DNA of 64,000 nt, from NCBI RefSeq assembly GCF_056746865.1, contig NZ_CM163382.1, one strand, 5' to 3'. This document shows, in pieces, positions 60,501-63,500 of the stretch; position 1 is the first letter of the stretch; each line of letters begins with the position of its first letter. Position numbers: made by a program.

Positions 60501-63500
60501 ACGCGCGGCGATTATGGCGGAGATCCGTCGTTTCTTTGCCGATCGTGGAGTGCTGGAGGTGGAGACGCCTTGTATGAGCCAGGCGACGGTAACCGATATT
60601 CATTTGGTCCCGTTTGAGACACGTTTCGTTGGCCCCGGGCATTCGCAGGGGATGAATCTCTGGTTAATGACCAGCCCGGAATACCATATGAAACGCCTGC
60701 TGGTTGCTGGTTGTGGGCCGGTATTCCAGCTGTGCCGCAGCTTCCGTAATGAAGAGATGGGGCGTTATCACAACCCTGAGTTCACTATGCTTGAGTGGTA
60801 TCGACCGCACTATGATATGTACCGGTTGATGAACGAGGTGGACGATCTCTTACAACAAGTGCTGGACTGCCCGGCAGCAGAAAGCCTTTCTTATCAACAA
60901 GCTTTCTTGCGTTATCTGGAAATTGACCCGCTCTCTGCCGACAAAACGCAACTGCGGGAAGTGGCAGCGAAACTGGATTTAAGCAACGTTGCTGATACCG
61001 AAGAAGACCGCGACACGTTGCTACAATTGCTGTTTACCTTTGGCGTAGAGCCAAATATTGGCAAAGAAAAACCGACCTTTGTGTACCACTTTCCAGCCAG
61101 CCAGGCATCACTGGCGCAAATCAGTACCGAAGATCATCGGGTCGCTGAACGCTTTGAGGTTTATTATAAAGGTATTGAGCTGGCGAATGGTTTCCATGAA
61201 TTGACGGATGCCCGTGAGCAGCAACAACGTTTTGAACAAGATAACCGTAAGCGCGCGGCGCGCGGTTTGCCGCAGCACCCCATTGACCAGAATCTGATTG
61301 AAGCCTTGAAAGTCGGTATGCCTGACTGTTCCGGCGTGGCATTAGGTGTTGATCGTCTGGTGATGTTGGCGCTGGGCGCGGAGACACTGGCTGAAGTCAT
61401 CGCCTTTAGCGTTGACCGGGCATAATTCTGAAAAATTACTGAATTAACCGCGAAGAATGGCGTGATAAGCGCCATTCTGTAGCATATGTTTTCATTTTTC
61501 CGCTAAAGGCCACAATTTAAGACTGGATATTTGATATCATCCAGGTATCAATTCTGTATTGGTTTTTACGCTGCCCGCTCAATGTTGGGCAGTGCAGTTC
61601 AGTGGGCGCGTTTTATACACGCGCTGAAATGAAGGATGGTTTCATGCCTCACACGATAAAAAAGATGAGTCTGATAGGACTCATATTGATGATCTTTACT
61701 TCCGTATTTGGATTTGCCAATAGCCCATCGGCTTATTACTTAATGGGTTATAGTGCGATTCCCTTTTATATATTTTCTGCATTGTTATTCTTTATTCCAT
61801 TCGCCTTAATGATGGCTGAAATGGGAGCTGCTTATCGCAAAGAAGAAGGCGGTATCTATTCCTGGATGAATAATAGTGTCGGACCACGTTTTGCCTTCAT
61901 TGGTACGTTTATGTGGTTTTCCTCTTATATCATCTGGATGGTGAGTACCTCCGCGAAAGTTTGGGTACCGTTCTCAACATTCCTCTATGGTAGCGACATG
62001 ACCCAGCACTGGCATATTGCCGGACTGGAGCCTACGCAGGTGGTTGGTCTGCTGGCAGTGGCATGGATGATTCTGGTCACCGTCGTTGCTTCAAAGGGGA
62101 TTAATAAAATTGCCCGCATTACTGCGGTGGGCGGTATTGCAGTAATGTGTCTGAATTTAGTATTGCTGTTAGTAAGCATTACTATTTTGTTATTAAATGG
62201 TGGGCATTTCGCGCAGGATATTAATTTCCTTGCATCACCGAACCCAGGTTATCAGTCCGGTCTGGCAATGCTATCGTTTGTGGTATTTGCTATTTTTGCC
62301 TATGGCGGAATTGAAGCGGTTGGTGGTCTGGTCGATAAAACGGAAAATCCAGAAAAGAACTTTGCCAAAGGTATTGTTTTTGCCGCTATTGTTATTTCAA
62401 TCGGTTATTCGCTGGCAATATTTTTATGGGGCGTCAGCACAAACTGGCAGCAGGTATTAAGTAATGGTTCCGTTAACCTCGGCAATATTACCTATGTGCT
62501 GATGAAGAGCCTCGGGGTGACGCTGGGTAACGCACTGCATTTGTCACCAGAAGCGTCATTGTCGCTGGGCGTATGGTTTGCGCGTATTACCGGACTTTCG
62601 ATGTTCCTCGCTTATACCGGTGCGTTCTTTACGCTTTGCTATTCACCGCTGAAAGCCATCATCCAGGGAACGCCGAAAGCATTGTGGCCGGAACCGATGA
62701 CGCGCCTGAATGCGATGGGGATGCCGTCTATCGCCATGTGGATGCAGTGCGGGTTGGTTACTGTCTTCATCCTGCTGGTTTCGTTTGGTGGCGGTACCGC
62801 ATCGGCGTTCTTTAACAAGCTGACGCTGATGGCGAACGTGTCTATGACGCTTCCTTACTTGTTCCTCGCGCTGGCTTTCCCATTCTTTAAAGCACGTCAG
62901 GATCTCGACAGACCGTTTGTGATTTTCAAAACGCGTATGTCGGCAATGATTGCGACGGTGGTTGTCGTTCTGGTGGTGACATTTGCGAACGTCTTCACCA
63001 TTATTCAGCCTGTGGTTGAAGCCGGAGACTGGGACAGCACATTGTGGATGATTGGCGGCCCTGTCTTCTTCTCGCTGTTAGCGATGGCGATTTACCAGAA
63101 CTATTGCAGTCGCATGGCGAATAAACCTGAGTTAGCTCTCGACTGATCCTATGAAATCCTGCAACTCATCGTCTCTCCGACGATGAGTTGTCAGGAAGTA
63201 ATGCGTATGGATGATACTCTCCAGGGCCGGTGATAACTGAAGATGATGTTAAGCTGCTAAATGAGCCACGTTGACATCATTTGGCAGCTTCATGCATTAC
63301 AAACTTCCCGCCTGACGACCTTTGCCCGCAGACGTCAGCGTTCTCCCCGTTTGTTTACCGTTGAGGCTTTCCAGACGCATCTGGAAGGGCGGGAATGGCA
63401 TATCGATACCGTGGGCGTGGAAGCCAGCCAGAATCAGCTGGTGGATCTCATGGCGTAGCGGCATACGGTGACCCATCTCAGCGGCGTAAATACGCAGCTC

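What the first reader, a model, noticed from the sequence alone, without database searches (positions are those of the whole stretch)
63147..63296. Very short yjeM-mscM spacer (possible absence of the K-12 small ORFs yjeN and yjeO)
From memory, K-12 has two small ORFs (yjeN, yjeO) between yjeM and the 3' end of mscM. Here only about 150 bp separates them, suggesting a strain-variable micro-indel in otherwise conserved core.
Basis: established knowledge. Interest (0 to 1): 0.15.

Follow-up and report, generated by a model that had tools for sequence, protein, structure and literature searches.

The report
Common deletion scar replacing yjeN-yjeO
The 150-base gap between the yjeM and mscM genes is real and is a very common E. 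coli variant in which the two small K-12 genes yjeN and yjeO have been deleted, leaving a dead stub of yjeN; this is ordinary strain variation.

Summary
yjeM ends at 63146 (+) and mscM ends at 63297 (-), leaving a 150-bp spacer (63147-63296) with no annotated gene. K-12 has 705 bp there, carrying yjeN and yjeO (104 codons each, 4-bp overlap).

The spacer is a deletion scar, not an empty ancestral site. It keeps the yjeN ribosome-binding region, the ATG and about 18 decayed codons (63207-63262; the ORF now reads MDDTLQGR*). E. albertii has yjeN-yjeO in the same slot, and Salmonella has yjeN or yjeO there.

The scar is not rare. Among 5,426 complete E. coli genomes:
- about 2,394 (44%) carry the scar;
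- about 2,153 (40%) carry yjeN+yjeO;
- about 870 (16%) carry yjeO only;
- 45 carry an additional second cassette.

The same scar occurs in two divergent Escherichia lineages at 84-90% identity, so the deletion is old. At least three independent deletions exist at this slot.

The finding is therefore correct but ordinary, and interest is low.

Side lead, not about the window itself: YjeO-family (DUF2645) genes elsewhere always follow a lysozyme-fold gene that is often next to hcp. This suggests a type VI secretion effector-immunity pair, with yjeO as a possible orphan immunity gene.

The parts
61644..63146 (+). yjeM CDS (glutamate/GABA-family transporter, 500 aa). It carries the 'W-type' C-terminal end ...NYCSRMANKPELALD*.
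   Evidence: ORF; RefSeq annotation of identical strain 118UI; alignment.
63147..63296 (.). The 150-bp yjeM-mscM spacer, which is the deletion scar of the yjeN-yjeO cassette.
   Evidence: About 2,394 of 5,426 complete E. coli genomes match it over at least 80% of its length, with no annotated feature.
63157..63196 (+). Strong hairpin just after the yjeM stop (TCCTG CAACTCATCGTC / loop TCTCC / GACGATGAGTTG T CAGGA). No T-run follows it.
   Evidence: -28.5 kcal/mol, z = -5.3, 0 of 200 shuffles as good. Not called as an intrinsic terminator. The K-12 haplotype has a different sequence that forms the same kind of hairpin (L001:1040-1100).
63193..63262 (+). Remnant of the yjeN 5' end: a Shine-Dalgarno-like AGGAAG, the ATG at 63207, and about 18 decayed codons. 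A 1-nt loss gives the dead ORF MDDTLQGR* (63207-63233).
   Evidence: Alignments to yjeN of K-12, N21, E. albertii and Salmonella scored 17-23, against shuffle maxima of 14-18; 0 of 300 shuffles reached the observed score. Also, and (82% identity to genomes where this stretch is annotated as yjeN).
63251..63290 (.). Second hairpin next to the mscM stop, with 14-bp arms AAGCTGCTAAATGA / TCATTTGGCAGCTT and a 12-nt loop. The left arm is made of yjeN-remnant codons. The right ~34 bp (63263-63296) does not align with any yjeN, yjeO or K-12 terminator sequence.
   Evidence: + strand -26.5 kcal/mol, z = -3.3; - strand -20.6 kcal/mol, z = -2.3. Searches show no alignable partner. No terminator call.
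63297..64000 (-). 3' part of mscM (miniconductance mechanosensitive channel). The CDS runs off the window end.

Best explanation
The spacer is an old, widespread deletion allele of the accessory two-gene cassette yjeN-yjeO, which lies between yjeM and mscM in K-12.

The ancestor of Escherichia and Salmonella carried yjeN and yjeO in this slot. One deletion removed everything from about codon 19 of yjeN to the end of yjeO and its terminator hairpin. The yjeM-proximal hairpin, the yjeN ribosome-binding site and start codon, and a short stub were left behind and have since decayed (frameshift, then a stop after 8 codons). About 34 bp next to mscM is of unclear origin.

The scar encodes nothing recognisable. 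Its two hairpins probably just mark or stabilise the 3' ends of the two convergent transcripts; this step is inferred, not shown. The allele now segregates in E. coli at about 44%, alongside the intact cassette and other independent partial deletions.
For: Shown:
- Coordinates and the absence of any gene.
- K-12 has yjeN and yjeO there.
- Allele counts are 2,394 scar, 2,153 yjeN+yjeO, and about 870 mostly yjeO-only, summing to 5,424 of 5,426 genomes.
- The yjeN 5' remnant is significant against shuffles (alignments).
- E. albertii has yjeN (85% aa identity) and yjeO (80%) in the same slot.
- Salmonella enterica has yjeN only (69% aa identity) or yjeO only (57%) between yjeM and mscM.
- The same scar is alignable over its whole length in E. 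coli E69 and Escherichia sp. MOD1-EC7003. Spacer identity is 84-90%, against 92-96% for the flanking genes.
- Different deletion breakpoints in SE15 and E. whittamii show recurrent loss.
- No Rfam family matches.

Inferred: the remnant shares Val15 and Asn19 with Salmonella yjeN rather than with living E. coli alleles, which fits an old event.
Against: - The right ~34 bp of the spacer cannot be derived from K-12-type sequence by simple deletion, so the exact right breakpoint and mechanism are unknown.
- The two hairpins fold much better than shuffles, and the scar is kept in divergent lineages. Some acquired function of the scar is therefore not excluded.
- Allele counts rest on coverage thresholds in BLAST summaries, not on per-genome inspection.
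Confidence: 0.92

Rival explanations
1. The short spacer is the ancestral empty site, and yjeN-yjeO were inserted in the K-12 lineage.
For: The cassette is small, tightly packed and bracketed by hairpins. The slot also accepts other cassettes and IS elements in some strains. An Enterobacter MAG has only a 64-bp yjeM-mscM spacer with no cassette.
Against: The window's spacer contains the yjeN ribosome-binding site, ATG and about 18 homologous codons. yjeN and/or yjeO occupy the same slot in E. albertii and Salmonella at identities that match species divergence. No repeats or mobile-element ends flank the K-12 genes in the alignment.
Confidence: 0.03
2. The scar has acquired a function of its own. 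For example, its two hairpins could act as terminators or 3'-end stabilisers for the convergent yjeM and mscM transcripts, or it could encode a small RNA.
For: The hairpins at 63157-63196 (z = -5.3) and 63251-63290 (z = -3.3) fold far better than shuffles. Every allele examined keeps a hairpin directly after yjeM and one directly after mscM, although the sequences differ between alleles. The scar persists in divergent Escherichia lineages.
Against: Neither hairpin is followed by a T-run, and no terminator-like site was called. There is no Rfam match. The spacer diverges faster (84-90%) than the flanking genes (92-96%), as neutral DNA would. This reading adds to the deletion explanation rather than replacing it.
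Confidence: 0.15
3. The short spacer is an assembly or sequencing artefact.
For: None.
Against: The identical or near-identical spacer is present in about 2,394 independently finished complete genomes, including O157:H7, CFT073, E2348/69, BL21 derivatives and ATCC 25922.
Confidence: 0.01

Closest known systems
E. coli K-12 yjeM-yjeN-yjeO-mscM region (b4156-b4159)
   Same: The flanking genes, their orientation and the slot are the same. The yjeN ribosome-binding site, start codon and first ~18 codons are recognisable in the window.
   Different: The window lacks the rest of yjeN, all of yjeO and the K-12 bidirectional terminator hairpin. It also carries the other haplotype of the yjeM 3' end and post-yjeM hairpin, the one shared with strain N21 and E. 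albertii.
Scar allele in other sequenced E. coli (O157:H7, CFT073, E2348/69, BL21/C43(DE3), ATCC 25922, 118UI)
   Same: The same 150-bp spacer at 97-100% identity, unannotated in RefSeq.
   Different: Nothing of note. The window is a typical member of this allele class.
yjeO-only alleles (E. coli SE15 type; E. whittamii) and Salmonella yjeN-only or yjeO-only alleles
   Same: These are independent partial losses in the same slot, showing that the cassette is dispensable and repeatedly eroded.
   Different: They have different breakpoints and retain one of the two genes. The window retains neither.
Type VI secretion peptidoglycan glycoside-hydrolase effector-immunity pairs (Tge/Tgi, e.g. P. aeruginosa Tse3-Tsi3). 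The family names are from my own knowledge; the Tse3 structures came up.
   Same: This applies to the related cassette hyp237-DUF2645, not to the window. hyp237 has a lysozyme/lytic-transglycosylase fold and no signal peptide. It is tightly followed by a small protein, and hcp is adjacent in three genera.
   Different: hyp237 has no sequence similarity to Tse3. The putative immunity protein is a ~3-helix inner-membrane protein (DUF2645) rather than a soluble periplasmic protein or lipoprotein. Nothing has been tested experimentally. In E. coli K-12, yjeO is paired with yjeN, not with the lysozyme-fold gene.

Membership tests
yjeN-yjeO deletion (scar) allele of the E. coli yjeM-mscM slot | Flanked by yjeM (+) and mscM (-) in convergent orientation | tested here: met
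yjeN-yjeO deletion (scar) allele of the E. coli yjeM-mscM slot | No intact yjeN or yjeO coding sequence between them | tested here: met
   ORF list. tblastn with YjeN, YjeO, YjeO2 and hyp237 against the window end found only the YjeM and MscM hits.
yjeN-yjeO deletion (scar) allele of the E. coli yjeM-mscM slot | Spacer homologous over its full length to the spacer of other scar-allele genomes | tested here: met
   2,394 genomes with at least 80% coverage, mostly 95-100% identity; alignment with L013 and L019.
yjeN-yjeO deletion (scar) allele of the E. coli yjeM-mscM slot | Residual yjeN sequence that shows derivation by deletion | tested here: met
   (0 of 300 shuffles reach the observed alignment score).
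YjeO family / DUF2645 (PF10840) | An ORF in the spacer matching PF10840 | tested here: not met
   No such ORF in 63147-63296. The K-12 and GF3-3 proteins do match PF10840 (E = 4e-41 and 4e-30).
Rho-independent (intrinsic) terminator | G+C-rich stem-loop followed directly by a T-run | tested here: not met
   Stable hairpins are present, but no T-run follows them and no terminator-like site is called in 62900-63500.
Any curated RNA family (Rfam 15) | Covariance-model match at E <= 1 | tested here: not met
   0 matches in 62900-63500 on both strands.
T6SS effector-immunity pair (considered for the related hyp237-DUF2645 cassette, absent from the window) | Genetic linkage of the effector gene to hcp, vgrG or PAAR | tested here: inconclusive
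   hcp is adjacent in Dickeya (upstream, same strand, 10-bp gap), Pectobacterium and Xenorhabdus (convergent, downstream). It is not adjacent in Cronobacter, Advenella, E. coli GF3-3 or MGYG-HGUT-00110.
T6SS effector-immunity pair (considered for the related hyp237-DUF2645 cassette, absent from the window) | Effector has a toxic enzymatic fold and no Sec signal | tested here: met
   AlphaFold model with pLDDT 86.6. The top Foldseek hits are MltE, Tse3, g-type lysozymes and phage LT_GEWL proteins, with probability ~1.0 but weak E-values of about 0.03 and TM 0.4-0.5. There is no hydrophobic N-terminus. An invariant Glu77 lies in the AEVGG motif.
T6SS effector-immunity pair (considered for the related hyp237-DUF2645 cassette, absent from the window) | T6SS-dependent secretion, toxicity, and neutralisation by the downstream protein | not testable with these tools
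   This needs experiments.

The most novel reading that the evidence does not exclude
The yjeM-mscM slot may be a decaying orphan type VI secretion effector-immunity island, with YjeO/DUF2645 as an unrecognised family of inner-membrane immunity proteins. These proteins would act against an Hcp-linked lysozyme-fold effector, the 237-aa 'hyp237' family. On this reading, the 44% of E. coli that carry the window's scar have lost an orphan immunity gene. They would be more sensitive than K-12-type strains to T6SS attack by Enterobacterales that deploy that effector. 'DUF2645' gives no hit in the paper library.
Probability: 0.3. Interest if true: 0.45.

Novelty: already known. Interest (0 to 1): 0.12.

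Why it matters
For the window itself it matters little. The result documents that yjeN and yjeO are accessory genes and that their absence is the commonest state in E. coli, so K-12 is not the norm at this locus. This is useful for annotation: the 8-codon stub should not be called a gene. It also cautions against treating these y-genes as core.

The locus is a tidy example of an old presence/absence polymorphism with recurrent independent deletions, shared between Escherichia and Salmonella.

The only point with wider potential is the side lead that DUF2645/YjeO proteins may be T6SS immunity proteins. If true, it would give a function to a long-unannotated K-12 gene and a phenotype to this polymorphism.

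Tried and rejected
- **Rfam scan.** The spacer and flanks gave no match.
- **Promoter/terminator scan.** No terminator was called, and only a weak promoter-like site (63188-63215) was found, probably the relic of the yjeN promoter region.
- **Origin of the right 34 bp.** I tried to derive 63263-63296 from yjeO or the K-12 terminator by global and local alignment. No convincing match was found.
- **YjeN function.** There was no Pfam, NCBIfam, PADLOC, PHROG or PDB sequence hit. The AlphaFold model is only moderate (pLDDT 68.9), and its Foldseek search of the PDB gave nothing below E = 1. Function remains unknown.
- **YjeN as a degenerate fragment of hyp237.** Rejected: BLASTP found no alignment, and hhalign gave a probability of 0.5%.
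- **yjeN-yjeO as a mutually dependent toxin-antitoxin pair.** Made unlikely because each gene survives without the other in natural lineages: SE15 and E. whittamii keep yjeO only, while Salmonella keeps yjeN only or yjeO only.
- **hyp237-DUF2645 as a phage endolysin-holin remnant.** Not excluded by fold or by the phrog_11932 hit. It is disfavoured by the non-prophage contexts and hcp linkage.
- **Literature.** Searches for yjeN/yjeO, DUF2645 and Tge3/Tgi3 found only incidental mentions: sigma-E overexpression induces yjeO 2.6-fold (PMC2731931), yjeO is associated with growth in milk (PMC11390585), and yjeN is listed as a 'dark' gene (PMC9976479).

Full report
**Observation.** The yjeM reading frame ends with its stop codon at 63146 on the + strand. 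The mscM frame ends with its stop at 63297 on the - strand. A megablast of 62600-64000 against 5,426 complete E. coli genomes found a 100% match in strain 118UI. RefSeq annotation of that strain places the two CDS ends at exactly these positions, with nothing between them. In K-12 (L001) the two CDS ends are 705 bp apart. That interval carries yjeN (315 bp) and yjeO (315 bp), which overlap by 4 bp (ATGA).

**How common the allele is.** I used the 150-bp spacer as a query, then the K-12 yjeN-yjeO segment as a second query.

| Allele | Genomes (of 5,426) | Source |
|---|---|---|
| Scar: at least 80% of the spacer, mostly 95-100% identity, no annotated feature | 2,394 | |
| yjeN+yjeO: at least 80% of the K-12 segment | 2,153 | |
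| Other partial matches, mostly only the yjeO half (yjeO-only, as in SE15) | about 877 | |
| Second cassette added behind yjeN-yjeO (subset of the yjeN+yjeO class) | 45 | |

- The two searches together account for 5,424 of the 5,426 genomes.
- The 45-genome allele adds an ISEc40 remnant, a 237-aa hypothetical gene and a second yjeO-family gene.
- The window's state is thus the plurality allele (about 44%). It is shared by O157:H7, CFT073, E2348/69, BL21 derivatives and ATCC 25922.

**Anatomy of the spacer.**
- *Hairpin after yjeM.* A strong hairpin lies directly after the yjeM stop at 63157-63196 (-28.5 kcal/mol, z = -5.3).
- *yjeN remnant.* Next comes AGGAAG and then an ATG at 63207. The sequence 63207-63262 aligns with the first ~18 codons of yjeN from K-12, strain N21, E. 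albertii and Salmonella. In one search the local alignment scores were 17-23, against shuffle maxima of 14-18, and 0 of 300 shuffles reached the observed score. A 1-nt loss has put a stop after 8 codons (MDDTLQGR*, 63207-63233).
- *Second hairpin.* A hairpin at 63251-63290, with 14-bp arms, abuts the mscM stop (z = -3.3 on the + strand). Its left arm consists of yjeN-remnant codons.
- *Unexplained stretch.* The last ~34 bp (63263-63296) aligns with nothing in yjeN, yjeO or the K-12 terminator.
- *Scans.* No T-run follows either hairpin and no terminator-like site was called. A weak promoter-like match at 63188-63215 sits where a yjeN promoter might have been. Rfam gives no hit.

**Polarity and age.** A pattern scan of one genome per species recovered the slot in several relatives.

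| Genome | Content between yjeM and mscM |
|---|---|
| E. albertii | yjeN (85% aa identity) and yjeO (80%) |
| E. whittamii | a yjeN 3' stub plus yjeO |
| Salmonella enterica, some genomes | yjeN only (69% aa identity), flanked by REP-like palindromes |
| Salmonella enterica, other genomes | yjeO only (57% aa identity) |

- The cassette therefore predates the Escherichia-Salmonella split, and the window's state is derived by deletion.
- The same scar is alignable over its full length in E. coli E69 and Escherichia sp. MOD1-EC7003. Spacer identity there is 84% and 90%, against 92-96% for the adjoining gene ends. The deletion is therefore old and has diverged roughly as neutral DNA would.
- The remnant shares two residues (Val15, Asn19 in the restored frame) with Salmonella yjeN rather than with living E. 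coli alleles. This fits an old event.
- SE15 and E. whittamii have lost most of yjeN through different breakpoints. At least three independent deletions have therefore hit this slot.

**Two haplotypes of the yjeM 3' end.**
- The last ~12 codons of yjeM and the following hairpin exist in two forms. One is in the window, N21 and E. albertii. The other is in K-12, SE15 and E. whittamii, and its C-terminus resembles that of Salmonella.
- Both forms fold into an equally strong hairpin through changes on both arms.
- Each haplotype occurs with and without deletions.

**What the missing genes are.**
- *YjeO.* It matches PF10840/DUF2645 (E = 4e-41). It has hydrophobic segments consistent with about three membrane helices, an acidic 30-residue loop (9 D/E, 3 K/R) and a basic RKKRG loop. 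By the positive-inside rule the conserved acidic loop would lie in the periplasm (this is my inference).
- *YjeN.* It has no Pfam, NCBIfam, PADLOC, PHROG or PDB relative. It is confined to Escherichia and Salmonella. Its model is a small helical domain of moderate confidence (pLDDT 68.9) with no significant fold match.
- *Not a mutually dependent pair.* Each gene survives alone in some lineage, so a toxin-antitoxin relationship is unlikely.
- *Literature.* Published mentions are incidental: yjeO is induced 2.6-fold on sigma-E overexpression (PMC2731931), yjeO is associated with growth in milk (PMC11390585), and yjeN appears among unstudied genes (PMC9976479).

**Side lead (not in the window).** The 237-aa gene seen in E. 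coli GF3-3 has homologues across Enterobacterales and in Advenella.
- In all seven contexts I examined it is immediately followed by a DUF2645 gene. The contexts are E. coli GF3-3, Enterobacteriaceae MGYG-HGUT-00110, Cronobacter, Dickeya, Pectobacterium, Xenorhabdus and Advenella.
- In Cronobacter and MGYG-HGUT-00110 the pair sits in the same slot next to mscM.
- An hcp gene is adjacent in Dickeya, Pectobacterium and Xenorhabdus. In Dickeya the order is hcp, a 10-bp gap, the 237-aa gene, a 2-bp gap, then DUF2645.
- The 237-aa protein models well (pLDDT 86.6). Its best structural matches are consistently lytic transglycosylases (MltE, MltC, MltF), goose-type lysozymes, phage LT_GEWL proteins and the type VI effector Tse3. 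The scores are weak (E about 0.03, TM 0.4-0.5, probability about 1).
- It has an invariant Glu in an AEVGG motif and no signal peptide.
- Together these features resemble an Hcp-linked peptidoglycan-hydrolase effector with a membrane immunity protein. E. coli yjeO would then be a possible orphan immunity gene. This is inference from context and fold only.
- An endolysin-holin relic is a rival reading, given the phrog_11932 hit. 'DUF2645' returns no paper in the library.

**Verdict.** RefSeq annotation shows both states in thousands of genomes. The spacer is a deletion scar with no evidence of a function beyond, at most, transcript-end hairpins. Interest is low.

Noticed in passing
L008 (E. coli GF3-3) 1151-3971; L018 1034-2047; L024 4512-6012; L026 5001-6029; L029 4001-5572; L030 4001-5586; L031 4001-5053: A 237-aa gene with a lysozyme/lytic-transglycosylase fold is always followed directly by a DUF2645 (YjeO-family) gene. 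hcp is adjacent in Dickeya, Pectobacterium and Xenorhabdus. In Cronobacter and an Enterobacteriaceae MAG the pair occupies the same slot next to mscM. This looks like an undescribed T6SS effector-immunity pair, which would make yjeO a candidate orphan immunity gene.
   Followed up: partly
window 63100-63196, compared with L001 1000-1090: There are two old haplotypes of the last ~12 codons of yjeM plus the hairpin after it. The window, N21 and E. albertii end ...MANKPELALD*. K-12, SE15 and E. whittamii end ...VAKNPQWAVE*, which resembles Salmonella's ...DPEWAAE*. The distal hairpin stem differs on both arms but still pairs.
   Followed up: partly
L021 3990-4515 and L033 5949-6382 (Salmonella enterica): The same slot is polymorphic in Salmonella. 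Some genomes have yjeN only, bracketed by REP-like palindromes (GCCGGATAAGACCC..GGGTCGCATCCGGC). Others have yjeO only.
   Followed up: partly
L007 (E. coli SX48) 181-2754; L008 2008-2801: IS3-family and ISEc40 (IS630-family) copies or remnants are inserted within the yjeM-mscM slot in some strains and truncate yjeO. The slot appears to tolerate repeated rearrangement.
   Followed up: no
window 63251-63290: The left arm of the hairpin next to mscM is built from yjeN-remnant codons, and the right arm is its near-perfect inverted copy of unknown origin. This raises the possibility that the deletion involved a template switch or inverted duplication.
   Followed up: no
window 63261-63458 (+): A 65-codon ATG ORF starts in the spacer and runs antisense into the mscM 3' end. 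It is not annotated in RefSeq for identical strains, and I treated it as spurious.
   Followed up: no
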